A stretch of DNA of 64,000 nt from an uncultured Phycisphaerales bacterium (GCA_963755915.1 CAVWLP010000002.1:3488001-3552000); one strand, 5' to 3'; shown: positions 18,529 to 54,836, counted from the stretch's first letter. Program-made: numbers and translations. The notes: a model not told the origin generated them from the sequence alone.

Positions 18529-19155
18529 TCAATTAGAAATCGATTCCTTTTTCGAAGGAATCGTTCCGCATTCCGGACATCGCTCCGGCGTAGCGCGCAC
18601 GTCGTAGCCGCAGTTTACGCATTGGCCCAACGCCCCGCGCTGCCGTCTTCGCCGAATCCCGATGATTGCCACTACTGATGGGTACAACGAAAGCCCTATC
18701 AAGAACCAGTGCGGTACCGACACCGTGTCGATTCGGGAACTTTCAAATCCATTCCAGGGAAAGTCATCGCGCTCCCAATGAAACCCTATTCGATTCCAAA
18801 TCAGACTCGCGAAAGGCCCAAAAGCAGGTCCAGACTCATGATGGAAACCAGGATTGCTATCATATGGCATCAGGGCGAGACCAGGCTCAACATCGTTGCT
18901 GAGCGACAGAAAAGGAGGAAACGGATTTGAACCCGGCGGAGACGAAAACTGCATCGGCTCGTACTCGACCAAAATGCAGCCTCGGTTTGACTCCAATATA
19001 TAATTGGTCCAACGAGTTCCTCCGACATCGTGCGTGGGGTAACTTAGCTCGTCGAACCGCCAATAACTCCGCGCCCAGAAAGCCGCCGCCAGCACACTAA
19101 CTCCCAGTGACAACAACGCGAGCGCAGCTAACGACCATTGGTGATGCCGTCTCAT
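18529..19155 (-). CDS. Two-TM membrane protein with C-terminal zinc ribbon (CxxCGYDVRATPERCPECG)
   Basis: MRR..SL...FWARSY..VPHWFL..RRRR..CVNCGYD; ends ISN*, read from a degenerate IR. Confidence 0.85.
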   Translation of the reverse strand: MRRHHQWSLAALALLSLGVSVLAAAFWARSYWRFDELSYPTHDVGGTRWTNYILESNRGCILVEYEPMQFSSPPGSNPFPPFLSLSNDVEPGLALMPYDSNPGFHHESGPAFGPFASLIWNRIGFHWERDDFPWNGFESSRIDTVSVPHWFLIGLSLYPSVVAIIGIRRRRQRGALGQCVNCGYDVRATPERCPECGTIPSKKESISN

Positions 19156-19269
19156 CGAATGGGATTGTACCGCGTCTCAGTCGATCAGCTTCAGCAAATC
19201 CTCAATCTCCCAAACCGTATTAGATTGGCCAGTGGCCGGAATTCGAAAGTAGGTCAGTTTGAAATAAAA

Positions 19270-19788
19270 TTACTCTTTCGACAGTATTGTCCCGCATTCC
19301 GGGCAACGGTCGGGTGTGGCGCGTAGGTCGTAGCCACAAGAGGAACACATGCTTTGCACCTTAGTTCGCCGACGCCAAAACGAAATCGCAAATATCGCCG
19401 GAAAAACCGCCAGTAAAAGAGAAATGAACCAATCGGGGGTCTGCAAATGATAAAAGACGGAGGGAGCGGCTTTTGGAAAATAAGCGTCTGTTTGAATGAG
19501 TCGCTGGTAACGAAATCCCGAATCTCCCAGATTCGACTTTATCAATCTCGCTAGATCGGTGTCCCATCGCTCGTGTCGCCAATAGAAGCTATACCCGGCA
19601 GATCTATCGAGAATGTCGAAGTTCATCGAAACGAGCCCCAAATTGCTGCGAGCGACGATTTGATAATTTCCTTCCTTTCTGACCAGCATGTCCCAGCGCA
19701 GGTAACTGCGAATCCACAAAGCAATCATCGCAACGCACAGCACCAACGAGCCCGTCGCAATCGTATTGAATAACCGCCGCCGCTTCAT
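19270..19788 (-). CDS. Two-TM membrane protein with C-terminal zinc ribbon
   Basis: [43 protein letters not shown]. Confidence 0.85.
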   Translation of the reverse strand: MKRRRLFNTIATGSLVLCVAMIALWIRSYLRWDMLVRKEGNYQIVARSNLGLVSMNFDILDRSAGYSFYWRHERWDTDLARLIKSNLGDSGFRYQRLIQTDAYFPKAAPSVFYHLQTPDWFISLLLAVFPAIFAISFWRRRTKVQSMCSSCGYDLRATPDRCPECGTILSKE

Positions 19789-19887
19789 TTGCGGGAATTG
19801 TACCGCCCCTCAGTCGATCGTCCCCACCAATTCCTCAAGCTCACAAACATGATCGGCCAGCACCGCCGGTAGCGGGTCAGTTTCAAA

Positions 19888-20205
19888 TTATTTCGTGTTT
19901 TCTGTGAGTTTTGGAAGCGAGCGTAGACCTCTAACCAACTTCCAGGCACGCCAGATTACATAAAGAAATATCGCGATGCCGCAAAGCAGAAAACGCCACC
20001 CTAGTTCTTCGAAATGTTCCTTCTGAGGTTTCAGCGGGGTCGTGGAGGCAGCCCCAAAGTAATCCAGAGCGCCTAGGAGCAACCAAAACCCTATGAAAAA
20101 CGGAATCGACAGTAAAATCGCTTTTACGACGGGATAATGATTGTCATCGCGCCGTGTCGTATCTGGCGAGGCATAAGAAAGTGGTTCCATTGGCTTGTCT
20201 GCCAC
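19888..20205 (-). CDS. Small two-TM cassette protein with P-L-S-Y motif
   Basis: MADKPMEPLSYASP followed by two TM helices; the stop abuts an IR. Confidence 0.7.
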   Translation of the reverse strand: MADKPMEPLSYASPDTTRRDDNHYPVVKAILLSIPFFIGFWLLLGALDYFGAASTTPLKPQKEHFEELGWRFLLCGIAIFLYVIWRAWKLVRGLRSLPKLTENTK

Positions 20206-20375
20206 ACCTCAAAATACTACCGCAAAAGCCCCACCAATTCCCCGATCCACCAAACATCATTAATGCAGCCGTCACGTCACGCCTCTTCCGCTTGACGCGC
20301 TATGCGGCTCGCGATCACACGCCGGATTGTCGCCTGTCAAGTTTCTCCGGATTCCGGTAGTGGGTCAGTTTGAAA

Positions 20376-20786
20376 TTAAATAGTTTTTTCGACGGTTTTT
20401 CCGCATTCGGGGCAACGGTCCGGCGTGGTGCGGAGGTCGTAGCCACAGTCTCGACATGAGCCCGGAAGAATACGAGTAGCTTGCGCTTCACGGTATCGCA
20501 ACACGACCCAGCAGAGGGGGAGTGTTATCGTCGAAATGAAGGCTATACCAACCGGAATGCGCCATCCCAATGCGGGGAAGAATGGCCGAACGTGGGCAAG
20601 CGACGTGTCTTGATAGGTGAATACCCAGACGCCGTTCACATCGGTCGTTGTCATGGTTGTAGGAAGTGGCGGAGGCAAAGCGACAGGGCGTCTGAAGATA
20701 TAAACCCTATCGTAGACGAGGCCCACAAAGAGCAACAACGAAATGGCCGCAAGCCCGTTGAATACTTGTCGGCGGAAGCGTTTCAT
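20376..20786 (-). CDS. Two-TM membrane protein with C-terminal zinc ribbon
   Basis: [38 protein letters not shown]. Confidence 0.85.
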   Translation of the reverse strand: MKRFRRQVFNGLAAISLLLFVGLVYDRVYIFRRPVALPPPLPTTMTTTDVNGVWVFTYQDTSLAHVRPFFPALGWRIPVGIAFISTITLPLCWVVLRYREAQATRILPGSCRDCGYDLRTTPDRCPECGKTVEKTI

Positions 20787-20807
20787 CGCCGGAAATTGTA
20801 CCGCGCT

Positions 20808-20950
20808 TCAGTCAATCAGCTTCAGTAATTCCTCAATCTCCCAAACATGGTCGGCCAGCCCCGCCTGCATTGCTGGCGTCACGCGAAGCGTCTGCTGAAC
20901 CCGACAGTAATTGTAGTACATGAAGTGCAGGGCAACTTGCGCCGCGTGAT
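20808..20950 (-). pseudogene. Orphan IS1-family transposase C-terminal fragment
   Basis: NHAAQVALHFMYYNYCRVQQTLRVTPAMQAGLADHVWEIEELLKLID*, matching the C-terminus of the 57420 transposase. Confidence 0.85.
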
Positions 20951-21518
20951 TCAGTTCGCGGCAATCTCCTTTTTCGGCGGTGGGATGGTCCCGCACTCAG
21001 GGCAACGGTCGGGCGTGGGCGCAGATCGTAGCCGCAGTTGTGGCATATCCCGATGTGGCCTTTTTGTCTTCGCCTCAAAAACGCATAAAACCACCACGTT
21101 GGAGGTACAAGGAGTGCGATGAGTAGAAACCACAGCGGCACGATTAAATGATACTCCGTCGTTCCGTCAAACACCTTGACTACGCCGATTGCGAACCGAG
21201 ATCCCCTCAATCCGGACCATCCGCCGAGCGATTCCGCGCTAAAACCCTGGATGCCGTCTCCCGACTCCCAAGCAGTCGGACCGAATCCCCAGTGGCGGAA
21301 ATATCGCGGCAAGCCATACTCAGTCGCAATTTGTAGCGCGATTTGGCCGCCGCCTGTTCCAATAGTAACCCACTCAGGTCTAAAATGGGGGCTCACAATC
21401 GAAAAGCTAAAACTGTCGAAGTGGCTCACCGCGCCAACCAAAGCAACCCTACTCCGCCACTAAGCAGTAGCGAAACCATCGCCAGGCGGCGCAACATACG
21501 TTGGCCAAACCGTGTCAC
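20951..21518 (-). CDS. Two-TM membrane protein with C-terminal zinc ribbon (two apparent frameshifts)
   Basis: GTG start 6 nt after TATAAT; ..[37 protein letters not shown]. Confidence 0.75.
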
Positions 21519-21537
21519 GCTACAATTATATCGCATT

Positions 21538-21680
21538 TCATTCGATCAGCTTGAGCGAGTCCTCGGCCCACCGGACTGTCTCTGACAGACCAGTAGCCAT
21601 CGCGGGCCTGACGCGAAGCGTCGAATGGATTTTGCAAAAGTTGTAGTGCATGAAGTAGATCGCAATCGCGTGGGCGTGTT
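21538..21680 (-). pseudogene. Orphan IS1-family transposase C-terminal fragment
   Basis: HAHAIAIYFMHYNFCKIHSTLRVRPAMATGLSETVRWAEDSLKLIE*. Confidence 0.8.
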
Positions 21681-21780
21681 ATTTGAGTTGACGCAAGCGA
21701 AAAACCCCAATACATCACGAAAGAAGCCCAATTGTCCCCACCCGGCGGATCCCTCTCAATCACCCCCAAAAGCGACATCC

Positions 21781-21917
21781 AACAAACTGAACACTTTTTC
21801 CCAGACCCGCGCCGGCTTTGCCAGCAACTCGTTCCAACTCATTTCCGGTTAAACACTTGCGTCACTCCATAAAACTAGCATTCACTAATCAATTTTTGAA
21901 AAGTGTTCAGTTTTGTT
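21781..21917. repeat. MITE-like AT-rich element with terminal inverted repeats
   Basis: aacaaactgaacactttt ... aaaagtgttcagttttgtt, followed by further gttcagt units. Confidence 0.55.
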
Positions 21918-21937
21918 CAGTTCTGTTCAGTCGCTCC

Positions 21938-23181
21938 CTAGAACTCAAAATCCGTCCCGCCCAGCCGCAGGTCCACTTCCGCCAGCACCCGCCTCTCCTC
22001 CGCCTCGTCCTTTGCCGAGAACGTAACGCTGAACCGCACATACGCCCCCGCATCATCCCACGGAACGGTGCTGATGAGCTTTTCAGTGATCAGCCACTGG
22101 CTGAAATCCTCCGCCCGCCCGAACCCGATGCGCTTTCCGTCCTTGCCCACCCCGCTGCGCGGAGATTTCACATACAGAAAAAACGACCCGCACGGCTTCC
22201 TCGCCGGCAGCTTGTGGCGATTCAAGACCGCCACCAGGCCGTCCATCCGCCGCGAATATTTCGCCGCGATCGACCGGGTGATTTCCGGATGATCCAGCGC
22301 ATAGCGCAGGCTTCTTGGATCGCCAAAAACTGCCCCGAATCCGTGTTGTCCTTCACATCCGCGTAAGCCCGGACCAGCAGCCGGTTCCCCGCCACGAACC
22401 CCAGCCGCCACCCCGTCATGTTGAACGCTTTGCTCATGGAGTGCAGCTCGATGCCGACGTCGATCGCCCCAGGCGTCGCCAGGAACGAGAGCGGCTTGCC
22501 GTCAAACACCAGCGCCGCATACGCCGCGTCGTGAATGACCACGAGATTGTGCTGCTTGGCAAACGCGACAACCGCCGCGAAGAATTCGGGCGTGGCGCTC
22601 GCGCCGGTCGGATTGTTCGGATAGTTAATCACCAGCGTCTTGGCCCGCCGAAGCTTGTCGGCCGGCACCGAGTTCAAATCGGGTAGGAAACTGTTCTTCT
22701 CCAGCAGCGGGATGTTGTGCACTTCGCCGCCGTAATACTGCGCGTGCGTTCCGAAGACGGCGTAGCCCGGCGAAGTCATGAGGGCCACGTCGCCCGGGTT
22801 GATCAGGCACGCAGGCAGAATCGAGAGTGCCGCTTTCGAGCCGATCGAGTGCACGATTTCGCTTTCAGGGTTGATCCCCTCGACGCCGCAGACGTTTTCA
22901 AGCCATCGCGCCGCGGCCTCCCTGTAGATCGCACCGCCGTTATCCGCGTAAGTCCGGTTCTGCGGTTTTCCAGCCGCGTCCGCCAGCGCCCGGATGCATT
23001 CGGGAAACGCCATCGCGTCCGGCTCGCCGACGCCCATGTCAATCAGTTCGACGTTCGGATTGGCGGCCAGGGCGGCGCGCTTCGCACGTTTGATGATTTC
23101 GAATTTGTAGATCTCCGTGCTTTTGCCGAACTGCGCGCCGCCGATGCGGTTGGCGAATAGAGACTGGATGTATGGATCCAT
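21938..23181 (-). CDS. dapL: LL-diaminopimelate aminotransferase (frameshift near 22300)
   Basis: FANRIGG..FGK..IYKFE.IKRAK, INYPNNPTGA, HDAAY, SMSKAFNMTGWR and STVPWDDAG. Confidence 0.9.
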
Positions 23182-23229
23182 AGGGCGAGGAATTCTAGCG
23201 GTTTGCCGGCGATTTGAAACAGACGCCGT

Positions 23230-23895
23230 TCATTCCTTGACTACGGCAAGCGTAAATCCGTCGTATCCCTTGGAGCCAACGGTTTGCAATGCGGTCGCAG
23301 TGACGCGTTTTTCTTTGGAAAGGAGCTCGTTGAATCGGCGGATGCCCAGCACGTCGCGGTCGGAGCTCTTGGCGTCGATGACGGCGCCCTTGCGCACCAC
23401 GTTGTCCACCACAATGACGCTGCCGGGGCGCGAGAGCTTGAGGGACCAGTTGAAGTATTCAGCCGTGCTGGCTTTGTCGGCGTCGATGAAAAAGAGATCG
23501 AAGGGGCCGCGTTTTTCTGAGGCGAGCCGCGGCAGGGTTTGGATCGCGGGCGCGGTGATGATTTCAACGATGTTGGCGAGGCCCGCCTGGGCGATGTTGG
23601 TTTGCGCGACGGCGGCGTGCTTTGGCTCAGCCTCCAGCGTGATAAGCCGCCCCTCTTTGGGAAGCGCGCGGGCCAGCCAGATGGCGCTGTACCCGCCGAG
23701 CGTGCCGATTTCCAGGATTCGGCGGGCGCCGGAGATTCTCGCCAGCAGATGCAGGAATTTCCCCTCGTTGGGGGAGACACTGATCTTCGGCAGACCAGCG
23801 GCATCGATCGCGCCCATGGCGGCGTCCAATGCCGGGTCGGGGCCGACGAGAAGGTCGGTATAGTAGCGCTCAACATCGGTCCACTGCTGCGTCAT
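23230..23895 (-). CDS. SAM-dependent O-methyltransferase (CCoAOMT-like)
   Basis: LEIGTLGGYS, FIDADK, VDNVVR and KGYDGF. Confidence 0.92.
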   Translation of the reverse strand: MTQQWTDVERYYTDLLVGPDPALDAAMGAIDAAGLPKISVSPNEGKFLHLLARISGARRILEIGTLGGYSAIWLARALPKEGRLITLEAEPKHAAVAQTNIAQAGLANIVEIITAPAIQTLPRLASEKRGPFDLFFIDADKASTAEYFNWSLKLSRPGSVIVVDNVVRKGAVIDAKSSDRDVLGIRRFNELLSKEKRVTATALQTVGSKGYDGFTLAVVKE

Positions 23896-25078
23896 AGGTC
23901 TCCCGGGCTGATTGTTTTGATCGTCTTTGCGAGCTGATCGAAATCGTCTTGCGTATTGTAGATCTGACAGCACGGCCGGGCGTGAATTTTTTCCTGCCAG
24001 CGGAACAGAGGAACTTCGATCTTATATTGGTCGTGCAGCCGCGATTGGAGCACGCCAAGCTGCGAATCGGTCAGCTCGTCGAGCGGCGGCGGCAGGGGAA
24101 CGGTGGCCATCGAGCCGAGCATCGAACCGTCGAGAGGGCTGAGTGAGGTGGTTTGCCAAAAATCGCAAAGCATTTGATTCACCCAGACCGCCATTTGGTG
24201 ATTGTGCGAAAAGAGTTTCTCCCAGCCGAGGTCGGCCATGAACTGGACGGCGCGCGGGATCGTGAACCATGCCGCGAAATCGCGCGTGCCTTGCCAGACG
24301 AATTCGGCCGGGAGGCCTTTGCCCAGGTTGTGACTGATGATGGTCGGATGGAAATCGCTTTGACGATCGGGGCGAACCCAGACGAAGGCGCACCCCTTCG
24401 GAGCAAACGCCCATTTGTGGAGGTTGCCGGAATAATAAGCTGGCGCGAGTTTGGCGATCTTGAGATCGAGCATGCCCGGCGCATGGGCGCCGTCGATGAG
24501 CACGTCGACGTTTCGGCTCGCGCAGGCTGAGATGATCTCGGCCACTGGGAAGACGATGGCGGTGGGGGAGGTGACGTGGTCGATCACCAGAAGCCGGGTG
24601 CCCGGCGAGAGCGCGGAGACGATCGCCCGGAGGATCGCCTCCGGCGACTCGATGGGGGTGGGGATATCGATTTCACGATAGCCGGCGCCGCTGCGCTGCG
24701 CGACGTATTTCATGGCCTGCCGGACGGCGTTGTAAACATGATTCGTAGTGAGCAGCTCGTCTCCGCTGCTGAACCGGCGCAGCGCAGCACACAGTTGATT
24801 GCCTCGGTGGCATTGGTGACCAGGCCGAAGTCGGCGGGCTGCATGCCGAGCCAGTCGCCGACGGCGGATTTGGCGATGTCAATAAGTTTTGCCGACTGGC
24901 GGCCCAGGATTTCAACCGGGTCGTTTTCAATGCGCATTCGCCAGGCAGTATGTTCGTCAAAAACGACGCGCGGCATCGCGCCGAACGAGCCGTGATTGAG
25001 CATCGCCAAGCCCGGCGCCAGCATAAACTGGTCGCGCATGTTGGGGCGAAGCGGAGAAGGTGGTCCCTGAAGTTTCAT
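23892..25078 (-). CDS. Class V aminotransferase (isopenicillin-N epimerase / EgtE-like C-S lyase), frameshifted
   Basis: LNHGSFGA, NATE, DHVTSPTA, DGAHAPG, GNLHKW and QGTRD. Confidence 0.88.
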
Positions 25079-46177: not shown

Positions 46178-46380
46178 ACGATTCAAACCTGAGTGTGCCC
46201 ACTCTTGTCAGTCCGAAAACAACCGCCGCAATTTTGGACATTTCGATTCGTTCCCTTTGGAGAATCGTCTCGACGGGGGAGTTGAAGCCCGTGCGGTTGA
46301 CGGGACGCATCGTGAGGTTCAAAGCAATGGATATCCAATCTTTTATTGATGCGAAAGCTGGTATCACCCATGCTTCCTGA
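46174..46380 (+). CDS. AlpA/excisionase-like HTH protein
   Basis: TAAILDISIRSLWR...GEL.PVRL.GRIVRF...DI..FI. Confidence 0.8.
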   Translation: MNDSNLSVPTLVSPKTTAAILDISIRSLWRIVSTGELKPVRLTGRIVRFKAMDIQSFIDAKAGITHAS

Positions 46381-48403
46381 ACAACTATCGCCAGAGCGGA
46401 TGCGAGAATTGAGCATAAAGTTTAAGAAGCATTTCACTCCGCCGGTCCCAACTGCGCGACGATTTAATCTTGAGAATCTGCGCAACAACGTCCCTGCCTA
46501 CATGCAGGACTTGTGCATTTGGGTGGCGTGGAAGTTTGGGCCACCCGAACGCAACGGGAAAAAACGAGCAAAGATTCCGTACACCATCAACGGCGATCTT
46601 GCCAGCAGCACCGATCCTGAGACTTGGAGCAGACAGGCCGATGTATTAAATGCGTTGGCGGGTGGTCGCTATGACGGGGTAAACTTTGCGACCGGCTTGC
46701 ATGAGGATGGATACTACTATTTGTCCATCGACATTGATGATGCTTTCGATGTTAACAGCAATCTCACACCGGATGCGAAGAAGATCATAGAATTGGCGCG
46801 CTCTTATGCCGAGCGTTCTCCCAGCGGCAAAGGTGTTCGGATCATCCTTCGCAGTCGGACCCCGTGCATACTCACTCGCCATCGCATCGCGGGTTGGAAC
46901 GTGGAAGTGGAATGGGGCGGAAAATTCCAAAGCGTAACCGGCAACCACATTGGCGGCACGCCGGATGAGTTGTCCGATGGCCAGGATGCCATTGCCTACA
47001 TCCAACGGCGTTTCGCTGAATTGGCAAACCCGAATGATGTCTGTGTGGGCGAGCCGGGCCAGTCACGTTTCTCTGACGATAATTTGATCCGCCGTGCGAG
47101 CCGAGCCAAGAACGGAAAACGGTTCGATGATCTTATGTCCGCCAAACCGTTCACGAACGAATCGGAAGCAGATTTTGAGTTGGCCTGCATCGTTTCCTTT
47201 TGGAGTAATAGGGATCACAACCAAATTGAGCGGATAATTTCCAACTGCCCTCGTGGCCAGCGTGCTAAGTGGAAGAATCGCCCCGATTATCGACGCAGCA
47301 CGATTGAGGCTGCAATACGTGCCACGGCCAATACATTCGGTTCGGGTGAAACGTCAAAGGAAAAGCATCCGGTTTCTCAGCCGATCATTGTTTGTTTGTG
47401 CGACGTGGAAGCCCGGCCCGTGAATTGGCTTTGGCCGAACCGAATCCCCTTCGGCAAAATCACACTGCTTGCTGGATACCCAGGCTACGGAAAAAGTTTT
47501 GCCACACTGGATATGGCGATGCGAGTTTCTACCGGCACGGCTTGGCCCGATGGCCCGGCTTGCCCAATTGGTGACGTGCTGATTATCAGCGCCGAAGATG
47601 ATCCGGCAGATACCTTGCGGCCCCGGCTCGATGGGATGGGTGCGGATGTAACCCGCATCCAAATCCTCTCAATGGTTCAAAATCCGAACGATGCCGGAGA
47701 GCGGATGTTTTCATTGTTGGACCTACTAGCCCTTGAATCGGCGATTCAACAAATACCCGCGTGTAAGCTCATCATCATTGATCCAATCGGGTCATTCGTC
47801 GGCGGAGAAACCAATACCGACAAAGACAATCAAGTGAGATCGGTGCTGGCCCCGGTCGCAAAGCTGGCCGAACAGTACGGCGTTGCGGTTTTGATTGTGG
47901 CTCATCGTCGTAAGGCATCCGGCGAACGGGCCGACGATTCGATTCTCGGATCGGTCGGCTTCGTCGGCATTGCCCGCGCCACAATGCACCTTGTCCGCGA
48001 CCGTGACGACAAAGAACGGAGGTTGCTATTGCCCGGCAAAAATAACCTCGCACCAGAAGGCACGGGATTGGCTTTCAAGATCATTGGCAGGCCGGGAATC
48101 GTGCAGTGGGAACCGGAACCCGTCACTGTGCGAGCGGATGATTTCTTCTCCGCCCAACAGGACAGCAAGCCCGGCCCCGATCCCACGGCCCGCAATGAAG
48201 CCGGGCAATGGCTGGTGAGTCTTTTGGCTGACGGAAAGGAAGTTGCGGTGAAGGACATCAAAGCCGGGGCGACGGCGATGGGGCACGCATGGGCAACGGT
48301 CAAGCGAGCGGCTGATGGTTTGCCCATAGTCAAGCGTTGGGGTGGTCCGGGGGAGCCGGGTTACTGGCGGATTCCAACGCCGGGTGCTTCCGATGCAGTC
48401 TGA
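46370..48403 (+). CDS. Primase (Prim-Pol/NrS-1-like) fused to an AAA_25/RepA-type helicase
   Basis: KIPY...ASSTDPETW, IDIDD, E.SPSGKG and SEADF; Walker A GYPGYGKS, IIIDPI, VAH and KNNL. Confidence 0.88.
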   Translation: MLPEQLSPERMRELSIKFKKHFTPPVPTARRFNLENLRNNVPAYMQDLCIWVAWKFGPPERNGKKRAKIPYTINGDLASSTDPETWSRQADVLNALAGGRYDGVNFATGLHEDGYYYLSIDIDDAFDVNSNLTPDAKKIIELARSYAERSPSGKGVRIILRSRTPCILTRHRIAGWNVEVEWGGKFQSVTGNHIGGTPDELSDGQDAIAYIQRRFAELANPNDVCVGEPGQSRFSDDNLIRRASRAKNGKRFDDLMSAKPFTNESEADFELACIVSFWSNRDHNQIERIISNCPRGQRAKWKNRPDYRRSTIEAAIRATANTFGSGETSKEKHPVSQPIIVCLCDVEARPVNWLWPNRIPFGKITLLAGYPGYGKSFATLDMAMRVSTGTAWPDGPACPIGDVLIISAEDDPADTLRPRLDGMGADVTRIQILSMVQNPNDAGERMFSLLDLLALESAIQQIPACKLIIIDPIGSFVGGETNTDKDNQVRSVLAPVAKLAEQYGVAVLIVAHRRKASGERADDSILGSVGFVGIARATMHLVRDRDDKERRLLLPGKNNLAPEGTGLAFKIIGRPGIVQWEPEPVTVRADDFFSAQQDSKPGPDPTARNEAGQWLVSLLADGKEVAVKDIKAGATAMGHAWATVKRAADGLPIVKRWGGPGEPGYWRIPTPGASDAV

Positions 48404-48415
48404 GAGTGTGATATT

Positions 48416-48512
48416 GAGCCAAGGGAGATTGAGCTATGGGAAATTTCGCTAAAATCAGGGGTGTACCCTCATTATTTCGCAAATAGCGCTTAGCTCAAAG
48501 TCGCTTGGCTCA
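48416..48512. repeat. Nested inverted repeats downstream of the primase-helicase (candidate origin)
   Basis: tgagccaag..ttgagcta ... tagctcaa..cttggctca. Confidence 0.55.
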
Positions 48513-48658
48513 CATTCGCTCTCACGGTGCTGTCCTAAGCAACGCCCGTCCGAGCAGTGAAGATTGGAGGCCGAATGTCGCAATAAGCTGTATTTAATAT
48601 GGTCATCATATACGTTACAGATAAACCTTTTTGATCGCATCAATTGAGGAGTTTAACC

Positions 48659-49078
48659 ATGAGTGAGTATCTTTCCCGAAAGCAATTCGGACCCGTGCTT
48701 GTGACCATCGACAGTATGTCCCTAACCGGCGTGAATCTCCGATTTGAGTCCGTAGAAGGCGAAGTCCGCGTCACCGACAATTCTAAGGAAAGCGTCGCCC
48801 TGTGCTCGGACGTTGGTGTGTTTTCTTCGGCAGAAATGTTCCGCTGGCTTGGTGATGAAATCATGCGACTTCAAACAATCAAAAACACTGTTGACGCTGT
48901 GGAGGCCGATATGCGGCCCCGCGTCCAGCGGATGATTGATGATGCGTTCGCAGCCAAGGCATATTCATTGCGGGATATGGACCACATGAGTTTTCAGGTT
49001 GGATATCAGGAAAACAAAGATCGTGATCGGGCAGAGCGCCAGTCAAACGGCGATACAGAGAATGGCGGTGCTGCATGA
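48659..49078 (+). CDS. Hypothetical protein
   Basis: RBS gaggag; 139-aa ORF. Confidence 0.6.
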   Translation: MSEYLSRKQFGPVLVTIDSMSLTGVNLRFESVEGEVRVTDNSKESVALCSDVGVFSSAEMFRWLGDEIMRLQTIKNTVDAVEADMRPRVQRMIDDAFAAKAYSLRDMDHMSFQVGYQENKDRDRAERQSNGDTENGGAA

Positions 49079-49356
49079 GCGGATACCCCGATGAAGCCAG
49101 ACTCCCTAATGTCATTCGCGCGAGTCGTCTTCATTTGATCTTGGCCGAATGGATCGGGCTGAAAATTAGTCGGCAGCGCGTGAATCAATGGATTCATCAG
49201 GGTGTGCGCGGTTATGTGTTGGCTGCTGAGAAACGCCCCGATCCCGCCCGGCCCTCAGCCGAAATTCTTGTTGTGCGCCGGGAAGACTTGTGTCAATTCC
49301 TGCGCGATGCGTTGGGTATCTCGATTGTGCGCACTCAGATAATCCAAAAAGCATGA
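49075..49356 (+). CDS. Small HTH/excisionase-like protein
   Basis: ISRQRVNQWIHQGVRG; immediately upstream of the integrase. Confidence 0.55.
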   Translation: MSGYPDEARLPNVIRASRLHLILAEWIGLKISRQRVNQWIHQGVRGYVLAAEKRPDPARPSAEILVVRREDLCQFLRDALGISIVRTQIIQKA

Positions 49357-49399
49357 TGCGGATTTTCATGTTATATTGATCGCAACGGGAGTAAATGCA

Positions 49400-50821
49400 A
49401 TGGCAAGTGTATTCAAACGTGGTGGGAAAGCTAACCGGCTTGGCCACTACACTGCATCGTGGTTCGATGAACATGGCAAGCGCGTGAGCCGATCCACAGG
49501 TACAGCAGACTTTGACGTGGCAAATCAAATCGCGGCCAAGTGGGAAACAGACACGGCCCTTCGCAAATCTGGCATCATCAATTCATCGCAAGCCCGTGTT
49601 GCCGATCATAATCAGACACCAATTGCTCAGCACGTTGCCGAATACATCGCCCACTGCAAGCATTTGGGACAGGACCATGTACACGTTTCCAACAAAGAGA
49701 CACAGTTGGACAAGTTGATTGAGAAAACGGGCGCTTCGCGGCTATCAGATATTGATCCGCACAAGGTTGAACGATACTTGGCGGGGCTGATTAAAGCTGG
49801 CAAGTCGCATCGAACGCACAATCAGCACCGTGCAACCGCTGTTTCGTTTTGCGAATGGCTTGTTGAGCAAACCCGCATTGCATCGAATCCGTTGACGATT
49901 GTTCCAACGCTCAATGAGGCGAAGGATCGGCGACGTGTTCGCCGGGCGATGAGCGAAAATGAACTATCGAAATTGCTGGCCGTATCGGATGGACGCAAGC
50001 CTTATTATGAATTTGCCTACTACACGGGCTTGCGAGTGAAGGCGGTTAAGGCGGCTGTCTGGGGCGACGTGGATTTTGACGCGGCAATGATCCGCGTGAA
50101 AGTCGGCAATGCCAAAGGCAAAAAGGACGATATCTACTTGCCGCTGCATCCGGCCCTGGCGGCTACGCTTCAAGCCATCAAACCCGCCTTCACCCTGGCA
50201 ACCACGCGAATCTTCAAGGCCGTGCCGACTGTCCGCACGTTCCACCGTGATTGCGAGCGGGCTGGCATCGCCCGGTACGACGCGGAAGGGCGGCAGTTGG
50301 ATCGCCACGCGCTGCGGACTACCCTTGGCACTCACCTTGCCCGTGCTGGTGTATTGCCTCAATCGGCGATGCGAGTGCTGGGGCATTCGGACGTGCGTAT
50401 CACGATGAAGCATTACACGGCGTTGAGGATTGAGGATACGGCCAAGGCGGTTCAAGCACTGCCGACTATTGAGCCGAGCAAGGCGGTTGCCAGCAACGTG
50501 GAAGCGATGAAGGCCACGGGTACGGATGGCAAGTCATCAGAAAAACCATCGCCCTCGAAAGTAGCAGGTGCTGGACGACAGCAGAATCGACAGCAGTTGT
50601 GCGGCTCCATGACGCATGACCCGGCATTGCCTGTCGCTAATGGCGACAAAGAAAATCCCGATGGTATGAAAATGCCGGCGCTCCATTTCGCTCGGAAAAA
50701 CAAGGGTTTTGACACTGCCGAGCATTGCGTGTCACTACCTGACTTGAACCAAACGAGCGAAAGCGATAGCATCGAAAAAGTACGGGCGATTGGCGCAGTT
50801 GTCCAACTGACCATTTCATAA
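49400..50821 (+). CDS. Tyrosine recombinase / phage integrase
   Basis: YTGLR, HALR, LGHS and MKHY catalytic motifs; the ORF reads through the att site (RAIGAV). Confidence 0.93.
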   Translation: MASVFKRGGKANRLGHYTASWFDEHGKRVSRSTGTADFDVANQIAAKWETDTALRKSGIINSSQARVADHNQTPIAQHVAEYIAHCKHLGQDHVHVSNKETQLDKLIEKTGASRLSDIDPHKVERYLAGLIKAGKSHRTHNQHRATAVSFCEWLVEQTRIASNPLTIVPTLNEAKDRRRVRRAMSENELSKLLAVSDGRKPYYEFAYYTGLRVKAVKAAVWGDVDFDAAMIRVKVGNAKGKKDDIYLPLHPALAATLQAIKPAFTLATTRIFKAVPTVRTFHRDCERAGIARYDAEGRQLDRHALRTTLGTHLARAGVLPQSAMRVLGHSDVRITMKHYTALRIEDTAKAVQALPTIEPSKAVASNVEAMKATGTDGKSSEKPSPSKVAGAGRQQNRQQLCGSMTHDPALPVANGDKENPDGMKMPALHFARKNKGFDTAEHCVSLPDLNQTSESDSIEKVRAIGAVVQLTIS

Positions 50822-50977
50822 CCACGATTTATATAGAGAGTTACAGGGGGGCGCTCTGACCGTGTGCCTTTAGTGTGCCAAAATCTGCACGGGATGGATT
50901 GTCGGCACACTCAGTCGCGTAATCTTTGCACAGACATTGTAGGCAGGAAATCGCCCATGGATGGAGCGCAGGTGCGG

Positions 50978-51333
50978 TTACTTCGCGTGGGCTGAATCGT
51001 GGGCACCAAAGGGCAGGAATGGGGTATGCCGGGCATCGTACTGGCGGGCGATCCGGCGCTCGTCTGCCGTTACAGGCAGTGGTTCAAATTGCGGCTTACG
51101 TCCGCCGAAGCGCCGCTTCAATTCTCGCTCGCTACGATTTGCTTCCCGCGTGTACCTAGATTTGAGCCGGGCATAGTAGCGATACGCTGGTGTGCCGGGA
51201 ATAAGAGCACGACGCATATACCGTTCAGTCTGTGTGACAGCGTTGTATTCGATGCCCATTACGGACATTTCAACGGACCCGGCCAATAGCTTGTATTGGC
51301 GGATCGTCGATACCAAATCTCCGTAGTCGCTCA
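50978..51333 (-). CDS. Hypothetical protein
   Basis: ORF with an RBS-like ggggga, downstream of ardC. Confidence 0.45.
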
Positions 51334-51404
51334 TGTTCAGTCCCCCATTTGTTCCACGACATTGCGGCACTCGCACCGAATGACCGATGCGAGAGCCGGA
51401 AAGT

Positions 51405-52277
51405 CTAGGCATCCGCTGCAATGCTTTGGCCGCGAATCAGGTCCGATGCCCGCTGGGCAGCACCAGCCGCGACGATAACCAATCGTTTGTCGCTGCGGAT
51501 CGTCTTTAACCATCCCGCAATGTAACTCGCCTGATTGTCGATGACCGATGGGTTAATACCCGCGTGGCCACACAGGAAAGCGGACGCCATTTCGGCAACC
51601 AATTCCTCGCGGCCGTAGTCGGATGAGCCAAAGGGTTTGGGTGCAGTATCTAGCTTGCGATCCAGCCGCTTACTATGGCCAGTGCTATGAGCCAATTCGT
51701 GAAACAGGACCGAATAATATTCCTCACCGGACGTGTAGCGCGTAGGTTCGGGCACGCGAACTAAATCGACAGCCGGGCGATAGAATGCCTGATTACCCCC
51801 ATGCTCGATTGTGGGCGGATCGGCGTAGGTTTTGACGATTGCTTCCGCCGCTTCCAACGGTTTGAAGTCAATGGGCTGGAATAACTTTGCATCGGGCGGA
51901 TTGATCCCCTCGCATTGTGCCACGTTGAATACGTTGAAGTATCGCAAGACGGGGATTGTTTTCGGCTTGCCGGTTTTCTCATCCGTGATTGCGTGTTGCT
52001 TCCAGAATACAACCATTGTCGATTTCTCACCCTTGCGAACCGATCCGCCGCGATTCTTAGCCTGATTGAATGTGAGCCAATACGACGATTCATAGCCGTG
52101 AGCGAATGCTTTGACGGCCAGTAGGAACACGTTGACGCCGCGATAGGCTTTGCCGCTTTCCAGATTCATTGGGTGTCCGGCAGTGCCCCGCCCCAGAATC
52201 GGATTGCGCCAAGGGACAACGCCATTATCCAGCATCCGGACAATTTGATCGGTGATTTCCTGATAAAGATCGAACAT
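51405..52277 (-). CDS. ardC: ArdC family antirestriction protein (DUF1738 ssDNA-binding plus zincin domain)
   Basis: DLYQEITD, VPW, YRGVN, WLTFNQA, VRKGEK, VFNV.Q, HELAH.TGH and EELVAE. Confidence 0.92.
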   Translation of the reverse strand: MFDLYQEITDQIVRMLDNGVVPWRNPILGRGTAGHPMNLESGKAYRGVNVFLLAVKAFAHGYESSYWLTFNQAKNRGGSVRKGEKSTMVVFWKQHAITDEKTGKPKTIPVLRYFNVFNVAQCEGINPPDAKLFQPIDFKPLEAAEAIVKTYADPPTIEHGGNQAFYRPAVDLVRVPEPTRYTSGEEYYSVLFHELAHSTGHSKRLDRKLDTAPKPFGSSDYGREELVAEMASAFLCGHAGINPSVIDNQASYIAGWLKTIRSDKRLVIVAAGAAQRASDLIRGQSIAADA

Positions 52278-52291
52278 TGCATTTCCTCCAG

Positions 52292-52537
52292 TTAGGACAA
52301 CTTGACTCCAATTTGTTCCTGTACCCATTCGACAATGCACGAATCACAGGCTTGGACGTGACAACCACCGATGGTGCTTCCCGCCGTAATCTGGTCGCAT
52401 ATTCGGCAGTGTGTTGAATCGTGCTGATTGACGATCCGCATTTGTTCCGCGAATTCAGTGTTTTGCCTCGCGATCAATTCCGCCTCGATTGCGGCTGCGT
52501 CGGCTAGAAATCCCGCGTGTGCTGTTTCGTGTTGCAT
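52292..52537 (-). CDS. Small hypothetical protein with CxxC pairs
   Basis: HCRIC...ACDSC; RBS ggagg. Confidence 0.5.
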   Translation of the reverse strand: MQHETAHAGFLADAAAIEAELIARQNTEFAEQMRIVNQHDSTHCRICDQITAGSTIGGCHVQACDSCIVEWVQEQIGVKLS

Positions 52538-53002
52538 TTGACCCTCCGTTGTTTGTGGTAATTGCAAGACAGATATGCAACACAATTCGTCCGTAGTCAA
52601 ACATGTATTGCGATTATTTAGTTAACAATCATTCGTGCGCGGTGTGTCAGCGGGGCGATTGTTTGGGTGGGGTCCAACCTTGCCCATGACCATGCCGGGT
52701 GGGGCTGGAATCCGATAGTCGAAAAACGGATACGCAAATTCCAAAAATGACTTTCAGTCGGACATTCGGCAGACACAAACGTAGCCTACTCATCCCGGTA
52801 GGCATCGAATCCATTTTTAGACCCCCACCCCGTCGGAATCTGACTCGCAAAATAAATATGCGAAATTTTGGGGCTGTTATCTCACATTGCCGTCAGACGT
52901 GACATTCAATTCACGCAAGCTCGATTACGGGAGATTGAGGATTTGCTGAAGTTGATTGACTGAGGCGTGGTAGGATACGGAGCCATTAAACGCCACCACC
53001 CA

Positions 53003-53470
53003 ATGTTGATGTTGCTTATGTCATTTGCGATGGCATTCATCTTCGCAATCGCATGGGTCATCGTCATGACGTTGACATTGCCCGCGACGGATGAAATGCA
53101 TGGACAGATGCCCTTTGCAGACCCGCTTGTCTTTCCGATCATGTCAATTGGGGCATCAATAAGCGCTGTTCTCACCTTTCCATTCTTTTACTTTTCCCTG
53201 CGCGACCGTCCGCTAAATACATCCGTTTGGATAGTCGTTGGGACTGTGCTGGGAGAAATCGTAATCGTTGTTCCAGTAAACGCGGCAATGGGGCTTCTAG
53301 GATCATTTTTGGCGTTCGGCATCGGAATATATCTAGCCAGGAAATTCACCAAATCCATGATATCCGCAGGCCATTGCGTTAAATGTGGCTACGACCTCCG
53401 GGCCACGCCCGACCGTTGCCCGGAATGCGGGACAATCCCGCCGCCGAAAAAAGAAATCACCGCAACATGA
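53003..53470 (+). CDS. Four-TM membrane protein with C-terminal zinc ribbon
   Basis: ..[31 protein letters not shown]. Confidence 0.8.
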
Positions 53471-53634
53471 AGTATTCCCACAACGTCGCGTTGCGTTTCA
53501 CGCACCTCAACTATCGCCGGATTCACCAGACGCTTCGCGTCACGCCAGCCATGCAAGCCGGGCTGGCCGATCATGTTTGGGAGCTTGAGGAATTGGTGAA
53601 TCTGATCGGCTAAAGTGCGTTATGATTACAGGCA

Positions 53635-54178
53635 ATGAAACGCTTGCACAAATTGCCACTCAAGGCTGCTGTGGCGATATCGCTGGCTTTGAATATAGCA
53701 TGTGTTGCGGCATACGTTTTCGGCGGAGCAAACCGACATATAACATTCGGTGACGCAACGCGCGGCTCTAAAAGTCAATATGACTTTGAGGTTGACCACA
53801 AAGCGTTCACCGTTAGCAAAAAAATTGGAATTGACCACATCCCGGCGGGCGCACGGTTTCGGACAAAAGAACCGGTTCTCCGTACAATTAGACGATTGGT
53901 ATATCTTTACGAATTGGCACGTCGGAAGTGAAATTGCCGGAGAGTATCCGGATGAAGATAGAGGCATCCACCTAATTTCCGCCCGCGTGCCCTTGTGGTG
54001 GCCTCTAATTCTAACAACGATACTACCCTTTGGTTGGATGACCTCATCGGTTCTCCGGCGACGCCGCGCCAGACCGGGCCATTGCACTTCTTGCGGCTAC
54101 GATCTCCGCGCCACGCCCGACCGATGCCCGGAATGCGGGACAATCCCGCCGCCGAAAAAAGAAATCACCGCAACATGA
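53635..54178 (+). CDS. Two-TM membrane protein with zinc ribbon (one frameshift)
   Basis: [47 protein letters not shown]. Confidence 0.8.
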
Positions 54179-54339
54179 AGTATTCCCACAACGTCGCGTT
54201 GCGTTTCACGCACCTCAACTATCGCCGGATTCACCGGACGCTTCGCGTCACGCCAGCCATGCAAGCCGGGCTGGCCGATCATGTTTGGGAGCTTGAGGAA
54301 TTGGCGGGGCTGATCGGCTGAGCGCGGTACAATTCCGCA

Positions 54340-54836
54340 GTGAATCGGTTCTGCCGATGGCTACTCAACGGGCTCGCCGTAGCATCATCGCTCTTGTGCT
54401 TGGCGTCCGTCTTTGCTTGGGTTAGCAGCTATCACGCCGAAAAGAGCTTTGCGCTGCCTTTCGGCGCTGGTCCGTATTGACATTTGCAAATGGCGATATG
54501 GAAGGCTTCTGGACTGGTCCTGATTCTCGATTCGACAGCTTCAGCGGCGGCTTCAGGATAAGTCATTATGAATCTTTTGTTGGCAGTCTGGATGGACGGA
54601 CAAGAGGTCCCGAATATCCCGGCGTCGCGTATTGGTCTTGGGTAATACATGACTGGTTCATCGTGACCGTACTCATAGCGCCAGCAGTGGGCTTATTTAT
54701 CCATCGTTTCCTTGCAAAGAGAATCACATCAGATGGTTTTTGTTTTCAGTGCGGCTACGACCTTCGGGCCACGCCCGATCGATGCCCGGAATGCGGGACA
54801 ATCCCGCCGCCGAAAAAAGAAATCACCGCAACATGA
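54340..54836 (+). CDS. Two-TM membrane protein with zinc ribbon (one frameshift)
   Basis: GTG start, [49 protein letters not shown]. Confidence 0.8.

What the first reader, a model, noticed from the sequence alone, without database searches (positions are those of the whole stretch)
18529..54836. Seven polymorphic membrane proteins sharing a constant C-terminal [19 protein letters not shown] zinc ribbon
Seen: seven copies (18529, 19270, 20376, 20951, 53003, 53635, 54340). Most share a basic N-terminus, TM1 (often ending WxxSY), a completely variable aromatic-rich loop of about 60-130 aa, a PxW-type TM2, an Arg cluster and the zinc ribbon. One copy fuses a different four-TM body to the same tail. 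Inference: this variable-sensor/constant-tail architecture resembles a receptor or immunity-protein repertoire (toxin immunity, phage exclusion, kin recognition) that signals or is degraded through one shared cytoplasmic partner.
Basis: partly seen in the sequence, partly recalled or inferred. Interest (0 to 1): 0.7.

Follow-up and report, generated by a model that had tools for sequence, protein, structure and literature searches.

The report
Transposon-borne zinc-ribbon membrane protein arrays
Seven genes for small membrane proteins with the same zinc-binding tail are real, belong to a very large unnamed family of soil planctomycete proteins, and here sit inside decayed copies of a jumping gene, which explains their tandem arrays and shared ends; what the proteins do is still unknown.

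Summary
The window has 7 copies of the [19 protein letters not shown] tail against 0.01 expected. Six copies have the layout basic N-terminus, TM1, periplasmic beta-rich domain, PxWF-TM2, Arg cluster, C4 ribbon. One copy joins a different 4-TM body to the same tail.

New points:
1. The family is very large and unnamed. It has 61,711 clusters at 50% identity and no Pfam or NCBIfam model. It is centred on Tepidisphaerales-like Phycisphaerae, with 7-57 matches per genome in this genus.
2. In this window every copy lies in the cargo slot of an IS1-family element, between the transposase stop codon and the right terminal inverted repeat. An intact 3.6-kb element of this kind starts at 62800 and carries an eighth copy just past the window.
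3. The two "clusters" are stacks of decayed elements. Only the last 15-75 transposase codons, the cargo gene and the IR remain.
4. The apparent frameshift in copy 4 is an assembly error. Copies 6 and 7 are untested.
5. The ribbon and TM1 are under purifying selection. Array content differs completely between the two closest genomes.

Function is not established. An accessory, conflict-type role is plausible but unproven.

The parts
18529..19155 (-). Copy 1, 208 aa, 2-TM zinc-ribbon protein. The tail ...KKESISN* runs into a degenerate inverted repeat.
19270..19788 (-). Copy 2, 172 aa. Reference member, folded with AF2.
20376..20786 (-). Copy 3, 136 aa, tail KTVEKTI*. The IR follows the stop directly.
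20951..21497 (-). Copy 4. The window sequence lacks one base at 21018 (in the ribbon) and one at 21434. Read-derived contigs restore both.
53003..53470 (+). Copy 5: the 4-TM body of a different small family, fused to the ribbon tail.
53635..54178 (+). Copy 6. The TM1 ORF (53635-53931) and the C-terminal ORF (from 53744) are in different frames. The break is untested and may be an assembly error.
54340..54836 (+). Copy 7, GTG start. The N-terminal ORF stops near 54480 and the C-terminal ORF is in another frame. The break is untested.
17583..17600 (-). Right terminal inverted repeat (IR) after the small TM cargo gene.
19245..19262 (-). IR after copy 2 (3 mismatches).
19868..19885 (-). IR after the 105-aa small TM cargo gene.
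20356..20373 (-). IR after copy 3 (perfect).
55381..55398 (+). IR closing the cluster-2 array (perfect).
17603..17881 (-). 92-aa small 2-TM cargo gene without a ribbon, between a transposase remnant and an IR.
19888..20205 (-). 105-aa small TM cargo gene without a ribbon.
17457..17498 (-). Transposase 3'-end remnant.
17895..17953 (-). Transposase 3'-end remnant, 13 nt upstream of the 92-aa gene.
18053..18229 (-). Transposase remnant (aa about 201-259, with stops).
19177..19234 (-). Transposase 3'-end remnant, 21 nt upstream of copy 1.
19810..19872 (-). Transposase 3'-end remnant, 21 nt upstream of copy 2.
20811..20954 (-). Transposase remnant (aa 227-274), joined to the tail of copy 4 and 21 nt upstream of copy 3.
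21544..21693 (-). Transposase remnant (aa 224-273) upstream of copy 4.
52928..52963 (+). Transposase 3'-end remnant upstream of copy 5.
53473..53613 (+). Transposase remnant (aa 229-273) between copies 5 and 6. Part of the 243-nt repeat D1.
54178..54321 (+). Transposase remnant between copies 6 and 7 (D1 copy, 94%).
54839..54979 (+). Transposase remnant after copy 7 (D1 copy, 93%).
57420..58170 (+). IS1-family transposase gene, C-terminally truncated.
62800..64000 (+). Left IR and first 1.2 kb of an intact 3614-bp IS1-family cargo element. It continues beyond the window and ends with transposase, an eighth zinc-ribbon gene and the right IR.

Best explanation
SHOWN:
- The seven genes belong to a very large, unnamed, lineage-restricted family of bitopic inner-membrane proteins. 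By the positive-inside rule the N-terminus is cytoplasmic. The parts are a conserved TM1, a fast-evolving periplasmic beta-rich domain of about 60-130 aa, a conserved PxWF-TM2, an Arg cluster and an almost invariant cytoplasmic C4 zinc ribbon.
- In this genome the copies are cargo of IS1-family 'transporter IS' elements. The gene starts about 21 nt after the transposase stop codon and ends at, or inside, the right terminal inverted repeat. In some copies the IR itself encodes the last residues and the stop codon.
- An intact element with this layout starts at 62800.
- The two clusters are head-to-tail stacks of decayed elements that keep only the last 15-75 transposase codons, the cargo gene and the IR.

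INFERRED:
- The stacks arose because the right end of one element was joined into the transposase gene of the next, as in IS-mediated adjacent deletion or nested insertion. Survivors always kept the cargo gene and the conserved sequence just upstream of it.
- The shared tail has two causes: common descent of the IS 3' end, and strong protein-level selection on the ribbon.

FUNCTION (inferred, weakest step):
- The constant TM pair and ribbon dock every paralogue to one conserved cytoplasmic or membrane partner.
- The variable periplasmic domain provides specificity.
- Carriage on a mobile element, presence/absence at syntenic sites and complete turnover between sister genomes point to an accessory, conflict-type role (exclusion, immunity or envelope recognition) rather than housekeeping.
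For: Family:
- 7408 of 8000 scored candidates have E<=1e-3, and the best 120 listed carry no name beyond 'hypothetical protein'.
- 61,711 / 33,140 / 4,910 cluster representatives match at E<=1e-3 / 1e-10 / 1e-30.
- No Pfam or NCBIfam model reaches its cut-off.
- 12 of 12 other genomes of the genus have 7-40 matches, and the own genome has 57.

IS identity:
- The transposase passes Pfam DDE_Tnp_IS1 (29.7 and 31.5 bits against a cut-off of 24.1).
- Two 99.8% identical 2.4-kb copies are bounded by perfect 20-bp IRs and 8-bp direct repeats.
- The motif after the zinc-ribbon genes matches that IR. It occurs 6 times in the window against 0.01 expected.

Cargo position:
- The intact 3614-bp element has IRs at both ends and CGAAATCG on both flanks. 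It contains the transposase, then a zinc-ribbon gene, then the IR.
- A second intact example comes from another MAG (L184).
- In the own genome, 11 of 28 transposase-3'-end matches are followed by a ribbon ORF, mostly at +20 to +23 nt. Two more are followed by family N-terminal fragments.
- In 12 other genomes, 18 of 52 C-terminal transposase remnants are followed by a family ORF. My rough estimate of the chance rate is under 1%.

Real genes:
- In ribbon codons that the search pattern did not fix, pS is 0.55 and pN is 0.21.
- A recent paralogue pair has dN/dS 0.37 overall, 0 in TM1 and 0.56 in the periplasmic part.
- The c4 frameshift is an assembly error.

Turnover:
- The array at the locus between the 592-aa gene and the aminotransferase is present only in the own genome and G001.
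- The other seven genus genomes fetched hold no ribbon ORF there, and in three of them (G003, G006, G009) the spacer is about 600 nt or less.
- The G000 and G001 arrays share no orthologues: 30-42% aa identity, against 94% for the flanking gene.
Against: - 0 of 11 full-length transposase loci fetched from other genomes of the genus carry a ribbon ORF of 90 aa or more. The gene is therefore optional cargo, not a core IS gene.
- Most family members show no IS signature. This holds for 13 of 19 in-frame full-length members in the own genome. Of 79 loci across related MAGs, only 6 have a transposase match upstream and 7 have an IR after the gene.
- The arrays have no left IR, so the way they were built is inferred.
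- The 8-bp flank repeat of the intact element lies in a palindromic target. It could partly be an extension of the IR.
- No canonical promoter was found upstream of the genes: 1 site against 2.8 expected.
- There is no expression evidence, no partner, no fold match and no defence-family match, so the functional part is conjecture.
Confidence: 0.62

Rival explanations
1. This is a chromosomal paralogue family into which the IS inserts by target preference. The genes would then be neighbours of the IS, not its cargo.
For: - Most family members have no IS signature.
- 0 of 11 full-length transposase loci in other genomes carry the gene.
- The conserved 5' and 3' ends of the genes could serve as insertion targets.
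Against: - The gene lies between the transposase and the right IR, on the same strand, inside an element with IRs at both ends and matching 8-bp flanks, and likewise in L184.
- The stop codon can lie within the IR.
- The offset of about 21 nt from the transposase stop is constant.
Confidence: 0.1
2. This is an immunity, exclusion or defence repertoire. Each variable periplasmic domain neutralises or blocks a different incoming toxin or phage, and the ribbon is a shared output or turnover handle.
For: - High paralogue number, a fast-evolving exposed domain and carriage on mobile elements.
- Presence/absence at syntenic loci, and non-orthologous arrays in sister genomes.
- Cluster 2 lies in an island with an integrase, ArdC and a primase-helicase.
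Against: - No toxin or effector gene lies beside any of about 20 loci examined.
- 0 of 10 proteins match PADLOC.
- Only 6 loci were found in 2.9 million viral contigs, and just 1 covers the full length.
- dN/dS is below 1 in the only close pair.
- An immunity protein has no obvious need for an invariant ribbon.
Confidence: 0.25
3. The C-terminal module (PxWF motif, TM helix, Arg cluster, ribbon) is a sorting or processing tag. It would be analogous to the PEP-CTERM tripartite signals (recalled), recognised by a dedicated lineage-specific enzyme. The middle domain would be the sorted cargo.
For: - The motif-TM-Arg layout.
- The tail occurs on unrelated bodies: c5 and its relatives, and proteins of 195-645 aa in other Phycisphaerae families.
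- Many substrate-like paralogues per genome.
Against: - The N-terminal TM1 is far more conserved than a signal peptide.
- Sizes are uniform and the whole length aligns.
- No candidate sorting enzyme was sought or found.
- c5 is a polytopic membrane protein, not a secreted domain.
Confidence: 0.08
4. This is an integron-like or recombinase-driven cassette array (attC-type sites plus an integrase).
For: - Same-orientation small ORFs are separated by repeats.
- A tyrosine recombinase gene lies at 49376-50821, 2 kb from cluster 2.
Against: - The repeats are transposase C-terminal remnants plus an IS inverted repeat.
- Cluster 1 has no recombinase nearby.
- Arrays elsewhere in the genome show the same IS remnants.
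Confidence: 0.03
5. These are repeat-derived pseudo-ORFs or decaying pseudogenes with no function.
For: - Three of seven are out of frame in the window.
- 4 of 42 ribbon sites in the genome have out-of-frame spacing.
Against: - The c4 break is an assembly error, and so is a break in a housekeeping gene.
- Synonymous sites are near saturation while residues are kept.
- dN/dS is 0.37 in a recent pair.
- Thousands of full-length homologues exist.
Confidence: 0.02

Closest known systems
IS1-family insertion sequences carrying passenger genes ('transporter IS', tIS; definition seen in passages of PMC9330008)
   Same: - A DDE transposase that passes Pfam DDE_Tnp_IS1.
- Terminal IRs of about 20 bp.
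- 8-bp target duplications.
- Passenger genes inside the IRs.
   Different: - The transposase is a single ORF with an N-terminal HTH. It has no InsA-type zinc finger and no frameshift; the classical IS1 layout is recalled, not tested against ISfinder.
- The cargo slot between the transposase and the right IR holds small membrane-protein genes.
- The cargo ORF can end inside the IR.
- Decayed copies are stacked into arrays.
ZitP of Caulobacter and other bacterial zinc-finger membrane proteins (named as closest known in earlier scan notes e1-7721171 and e1-4023833; recalled otherwise)
   Same: A small cytoplasmic zinc-binding module joined to a membrane anchor and a variable extracytoplasmic part. 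The earlier notes describe paralogue families in Planctomycetota.
   Different: - Here the ribbon is C-terminal, after a second TM helix.
- None of the zinc-ribbon Pfam hits listed for these proteins at E<=1 reaches its cut-off.
- The motif [19 protein letters not shown] is distinct.
- The link to an IS is new.
Generic zinc-ribbon Pfam families (DZR PF12773, Zn_Ribbon_1, Zn_ribbon_3)
   Same: CxxC...CxxC knuckle spacing.
   Different: Scores of 16.8-23.5 bits are below the DZR cut-off of 27.3. These models say nothing about the membrane architecture.
Orphan-immunity or cassette arrays (recombinase-associated immunity islands, integron cassettes; recalled)
   Same: Same-orientation small variable genes are separated by conserved repeats, and content turns over fast between strains.
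   Different: The repeats are IS transposase remnants and IRs. No attC-like sites, toxin genes or array-linked recombinase were shown.
PEP-CTERM-type C-terminal sorting signals (recalled)
   Same: The order short motif, TM helix, Arg cluster. The tail is found on unrelated bodies.
   Different: - No PEP-CTERM (PF07589) hit is listed for these proteins.
- There is an extra zinc ribbon after the Arg cluster.
- The N-terminal TM is conserved.

Membership tests
IS1 family (transposase) | DDE transposase matching the family profile | tested here: met
   Pfam DDE_Tnp_IS1 scores 31.5 bits (window copy) and 29.7 bits (intact element), against a cut-off of 24.1.
IS1 family (transposase) | NCBIfam equivalog transpos_IS1 | tested here: not met
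   52.5 bits against a cut-off of 100 for the truncated window copy. It is a divergent member.
IS1 family (element) | Terminal inverted repeats and short target-site duplication (8-9 bp is recalled as typical) | tested here: met
   Perfect 20-bp IRs and 8-bp direct repeats flank two 99.8% identical copies. The 3614-bp element has IRs plus CGAAATCG on both flanks.
IS1 family (classical IS1) | InsA zinc finger and programmed -1 frameshift giving InsAB' (recalled) | tested here: not met
   The transposase is a single uninterrupted ORF of 268-274 aa that starts with an HTH-like segment. This would fit a single-ORF subgroup (recalled, not tested).
Transporter IS (tIS) | Passenger gene(s) located between the element's IRs | tested here: met
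   The zinc-ribbon gene, an M78/IrrE-like gene and an HTH gene lie inside the 3614-bp element. In L184 the order is transposase, ribbon gene, IR.
Pfam DZR / zinc-ribbon families | Score above the gathering cut-off | tested here: not met
   The best score is 23.5 bits against 27.3.
Known anti-phage defence families (PADLOC-DB 2.0) | Profile match | tested here: inconclusive
   0 of 10 proteins match at E<=0.01. The library holds only systems described by 2023.
PEP-CTERM sorting signal | PF07589 match at the C-terminus | tested here: not met
   No PF07589 hit is listed for the 7 ribbon proteins at E<=1. A true PEP-CTERM protein in the same window is detected at 27658-28572.
Integron cassette array | IntI integrase adjacent and attC sites after each ORF (recalled) | tested here: not met
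   The intergenic repeats are transposase remnants and IS IRs. Cluster 1 has no recombinase. attC folding was not tested.
Known protein fold for the periplasmic domain | Structural match to a solved chain | tested here: inconclusive
   Foldseek best E is 0.076. VIA-align best Z is 4.9 over 57 residues.

The most novel reading that the evidence does not exclude
The ribbon-coding 3' end and the IS inverted repeat form one module. An IS1-family element would then have adopted a hypervariable, periplasm-exposed membrane protein as its habitual cargo. By stacking decayed copies it would build rapidly turning-over 'cassette' arrays. That would make this an IS-disseminated recognition or immunity repertoire specific to soil Phycisphaerae, with an invariant zinc ribbon coupling every variant to one cytoplasmic partner, possibly the transposition machinery itself.
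Probability: 0.15. Interest if true: 0.8.

Novelty: new variant of a known kind. Interest (0 to 1): 0.55.

Why it matters
- A protein family with over 60,000 clusters at 50% identity has no name, no model in Pfam or NCBIfam and no paper I could find. The motif searches returned 0 papers and a taxon-plus-zinc-ribbon search returned nothing relevant.
- It appears to be one of the main expanding gene families of a widespread group of soil planctomycetes.
- The link to an IS1-family cargo element gives a concrete mechanism for its spread, for the tandem arrays and for the DNA-level constancy of the tail.
- It also shows how an IS end can supply the C-terminus and stop codon of a cargo gene.
- The invariant ribbon is a clear handle for finding the partner.
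- The case is a caution as well: apparent pseudogenes in long-read MAGs can be assembly indels.

Tried and rejected
- Expression: no RNA holder was listed for the stretch, so expression could not be addressed.
- Joints between ribbon segments in metagenome contigs (table 5) have short sides and were laid at 90% likeness. I take them to be other paralogues or organisms, not evidence of recombination.
- Fold searches gave nothing usable: Foldseek/PDB best E is 0.076 and VIA-align wide best Z is 4.9.
- The PDB sequence search matched only the CPECG knuckle of designed C2H2 fingers and weak ribbons in Spt4, bL32 and RadA.
- The ESM Atlas returned only unnamed Planctomycetota clusters.
- PADLOC gave no hit.
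- The promoter scan found 1 site against 2.8 expected, so I make no promoter claim. Only a conserved GGTACAAT about 8 nt before the start codons is noted.
- I first read the GGGTCAGTATGAA before the transposase ATG as the left IR. Comparing 13 transposase loci showed it is the promoter and short 5' leader (TTGACA, 17 nt, CATAAT, 7 nt, ATG). The true left IR lies further upstream.
- I first counted 3 of 7 copies as pseudogenes and withdrew this.
- Homodimer prediction (complex prediction) never ran because the queue was full, so oligomerisation remains only a suggestion from tandem-fused forms.
- I did not attempt a tree of IS-linked against unlinked members, because only 19 in-frame full-length members exist.
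- Pfam on bodies of other Phycisphaerae proteins that carry the tail gave no domains.
- Viral contigs: 6 loci, of which 1 is full length. The family is not phage-centred.

Full report
**1. Observation**

A degenerate DNA pattern for the CGYD.R core finds 7 sites in the window, against 0.01 expected from shuffles. ORF lists and the sequence itself give these models:

| Copy | Coordinates | Size / note |
|---|---|---|
| c1 | 18529-19155(-) | 208 aa |
| c2 | 19270-19788(-) | 172 aa |
| c3 | 20376-20786(-) | 136 aa |
| c4 | 20951-21497(-) | out of frame in the window |
| c5 | 53003-53470(+) | 4-TM body |
| c6 | 53635-54178(+) | out of frame in the window |
| c7 | 54340-54836(+) | out of frame in the window |

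- An AF2 model of c2 built on that alignment has mean pLDDT 79.6 and pTM 0.59. It gives helix 2-28, six strands between 33 and 118, helix 119-144 and a small ribbon.
- Hydropathy finds 2 TM segments in c1-c3 and 4 in c5.

**2. Three copies looked broken, and at least one is not**

In the window sequence, c4 has a 46-nt ribbon spacing instead of 47. c6 and c7 change frame between TM1 and the rest. I laid contigs of four soil-metagenome DNA runs on 17400-23300.

- All four runs, at full depth, insert one base behind 21018, exactly at the c4 ribbon break.
- Two runs insert one base behind 21434 (the c4 N-terminus).
- Two runs insert one base behind 22303, inside a housekeeping aminotransferase that the window also shows split.
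- All four insert one base at 17612.

The assembly therefore carries about four single-base omissions in 5.9 kb, and c4 is intact. The best holder may be the sample the window was assembled from, so this corrects the assembly. It is not independent evidence of presence.

**3. The family**

- With c2 as query, 7408 of 8000 scored candidates have E<=1e-3. The best 120 listed carry no name beyond 'hypothetical protein', and many cover 95-99% of the query at 30-40% identity. The middle domain is therefore fast-evolving, not unalignable.
- A profile search of 1.84 billion cluster representatives gives 61,711 hits at E<=1e-3, 33,140 at 1e-10 and 4,910 at 1e-30. Many of the best 150 are two to six units fused in tandem.
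- No Pfam or NCBIfam model reaches its cut-off. The ESM Atlas returns only unnamed Planctomycetota clusters.
- The 79 loci kept in a scan of species-representative genomes are, all but one, MAGs titled Tepidisphaerales, Tepidisphaeraceae, Humisphaera, Phycisphaerales, Phycisphaeraceae, Phycisphaerae or Planctomycetota.
- In the window's genus, 12 of 12 other genomes have 7-40 matches and the own genome has 57 (matches are not exact copy numbers).
- Among 300 other Planctomycetota genomes drawn evenly, 9 match at E<=1e-5, and 8 of these are in the same class. The matches there cover only TM2 plus ribbon, inside proteins of other sizes. Only 11 candidates per genome were scored in that call.
- The own genome has 42 DNA-pattern sites, against 0 for the reversed control, and 39 protein-motif hits. 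Most are C-terminal, and about five are N-terminal followed by polytopic bodies.

**4. The tail is modular**

- The first 120 residues of c5 find 10 proteins among 24 candidates.
- Of 6 relatives fetched, 5 are 4-TM proteins of 128-156 aa that end without any ribbon. One has a variant ribbon.

**5.

- Downstream of each gene in cluster 2, and between the genes of cluster 1, lies a repeat that translates as ...RIHQTLRVTPAMQAGLADHVWELEELVxLI*.
- This is the C-terminus of a transposase. A truncated copy sits at 57420-58170. It passes Pfam DDE_Tnp_IS1 (31.5 against 24.1 bits) but not the NCBIfam equivalog (52.5 against 100).
- tblastn finds 7 long copies and about a dozen C-terminal remnants in the genome, and nearly all remnants sit beside ribbon genes.
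- After several ribbon genes comes TTTCAAACTGACCCACTACC.
- Two 99.8% identical 2.4-kb elements elsewhere in the genome are bounded by perfect 20-bp inverted repeats, GGTACTGGTTCAGTTTGAAT. They are flanked by 8-bp direct repeats, AATCGCCG and TAATATTG.
- The motif after the ribbon genes is the same IR in a sister lineage. It occurs 6 times in the window against 0.01 expected: four times as the right end of minus-strand units in cluster 1, once closing cluster 2 (55381-55398), and once as a left end at 62800.
- From 62800 an intact 3614-bp element runs past the window end. It has IRs at both ends and CGAAATCG on both flanks. Its contents, in order, are a small basic ORF, antisense M78/IrrE-like and HTH genes, the transposase, a 177-aa zinc-ribbon gene and the right IR.
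- A second intact example (transposase, ribbon gene, IR) comes from another MAG (L184). There the last codons ...EISN* and the stop are encoded by the IR itself (ATT TCA AAC TGA).
- The same reading explains the tails of c1 and of a copy at C2:1625464, and in degenerate form the ...KKEIxAx* tails of c4-c7.

**6. Strength of the association**

*Own genome.* Of 28 matches to the last 75 nt of the transposase gene (nhmmer, E<=1, some spurious):
- 11 are followed by an ORF with the ribbon motif, mostly starting 20-23 nt after the transposase stop.
- 2 more are followed by family N-terminal fragments.
- One is followed by a 92-aa TM gene without a ribbon, and then the IR.

*Twelve other genomes of the genus.*
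- 18 of 52 C-terminal transposase remnants have a family ORF within 900 nt.
- About a dozen others have an IR 400-900 nt downstream, with different or no ORFs between.
- With about 20 family genes per 5 Mb, my rough estimate of the chance expectation is below 1%.

*Against a core role for the gene.*
- 0 of 11 full-length transposase loci fetched from those genomes carry a ribbon ORF.
- Only 6 of 79 loci across related MAGs have a transposase match upstream, and 7 have an IR after the gene.
- 13 of 19 in-frame full-length members of the own genome show neither sign.

The family is therefore mainly chromosomal. A subset, including every copy in this window, is IS cargo. Passenger-carrying IS derivatives are known as transporter IS (passages of PMC9330008).

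**7. How the arrays were probably built (inference)**

- Each unit keeps only the last 15-75 transposase codons, the cargo gene and the right IR.
- The IR of one unit abuts the transposase remnant of the next.
- No N-terminal transposase pieces and no left IRs are present.
- Break points recur near residues 227-229, 242-243 and 248-252 of the transposase in several genomes.

This is what IS-mediated adjacent deletion, or insertion of one element's right end into the transposase gene of a downstream copy, would leave. Survival would require the cargo gene and the short conserved sequence before it to stay intact. I did not demonstrate this.

**8. Selection and turnover**

- Across 33 in-frame genomic ribbons, synonymous sites are close to saturation. 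The five codons not fixed by my search pattern (ATPDR) have pS 0.55 and pN 0.21. The figures for the whole ribbon are circular, because the pattern fixes most residues.
- A recent paralogue pair has dN/dS 0.37 overall, 0 in the N-terminus plus TM1, 0.56 in the periplasmic part and 0.28 in TM2 plus ribbon. That is purifying selection, relaxed in the exposed domain, with no sign of positive selection in this single pair.
- Cluster 1 lies between a 592-aa gene and an aminotransferase. Those two genes are adjacent on one contig in nine genus genomes.
- I fetched the spacer from eight of them. Only the nearest, G001, holds ribbon genes: four, one with a mutated motif. G003, G006 and G009 have spacers of about 600 nt or less. 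G004, G007, G008 and G012 hold other genes.
- The G000 and G001 arrays share no orthologues (best 30-42% aa identity), although the flanking aminotransferase is 94% identical.

**9. Function**

- Neighbours of 20 other loci in the genome are unrelated housekeeping genes and assorted transposases. There is no recurring partner.
- PADLOC, PDB sequence, Foldseek and VIA-align searches give nothing usable. Viral contigs hold only 6 loci.
- What remains is inference from anatomy and population behaviour. The anchor and the nearly invariant cytoplasmic ribbon ([10 protein letters not shown] surface) argue for one common partner.
- The variable periplasmic domain, the high paralogue number, the tandem-fused forms, carriage on a mobile element and rapid turnover argue for an accessory, conflict-type or recognition role.

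**10. Verdict**

The main advance is that the 'constant tail' and the arrays are tied to an IS1-family cargo element, and that the proteins belong to a very large undescribed family. Motif searches of the paper library returned nothing, and a search combining the taxon with zinc-ribbon and IS terms found nothing relevant. I file it as a new variant of a known kind: a transporter IS with a novel, hypervariable membrane-protein cargo.

Noticed in passing
window 21938-23181; 23892-25270; 3254-3790: Housekeeping genes are split into overlapping ORFs: a class I/II aminotransferase, a class V aminotransferase and SMC fragments. Read contigs insert a base at 22303. The assembly therefore has single-base omissions, and apparent pseudogenes here need checking.
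   Followed up: partly
window 17965-18018; 1534-1587; 13299-13343: A G/C-rich palindromic repeat (…CCCTCCCCCGGAGTACCGGGGG…) occurs in several places. Metagenome contig depth over 17975-18007 is about 50 times that of the flanks, with loose ends on both sides. It is a very abundant REP-like element.
   Followed up: no
window 55399-55422 and 62776-62799: The DNA just outside the cluster-2 IR and just outside the left IR of the intact element forms the two halves of a 40-nt perfect palindrome (AGAATATACCAATACCCGA AA TCGGGTATTGGTATATTCT). This suggests a palindromic insertion target, or a rearrangement linking the two elements across 7.4 kb.
   Followed up: partly
window 42000-52600: A lower-GC island (about 52-53%) holds an NrS-1-type primase/AAA_25 helicase (46346-48403), a tyrosine integrase (49376-50821) and an ArdC anti-restriction/zincin protein (51405-52340). 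It sits directly upstream of cluster 2 and is probably an integrative mobile element.
   Followed up: no
window 5983-7371: Group II intron reverse transcriptase/maturase ORF (RVT_1 + GIIM).
   Followed up: no
window 35239-37527 and 58639-60867: Two large paralogous ORFs (762 and 742 aa, no Pfam hit) share 78-80% identical DNA segments (repeats D2 and D8). One of them lies between the IS elements.
   Followed up: no
window 61471-62445: An IS4-like transposase (DDE_Tnp_1_4) lies just left of the intact IS1-family element.
   Followed up: no
G000 C2:1474700-1478600 and C2:2154500-2158500: Two 99.8% identical 2.4-kb IS1-family elements carry about 1.3 kb of antisense cargo (an HTH/XRE-like gene and a small toxin-like ORF) upstream of the transposase. 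They have no ribbon gene. This is a recently active tIS.
   Followed up: partly
window 53468-53613, 54176-54321, 54834-54979: In cluster 2 the transposase remnant begins with an ATG that overlaps the ribbon gene's stop (ATGA). This gives a 48-aa ORF ([11 protein letters not shown]…EELV…). Whether it is translated is unknown.
   Followed up: no
window 27658-28572: A PEP-CTERM protein, showing that an exosortase-type sorting system is present in this genome.
   Followed up: no
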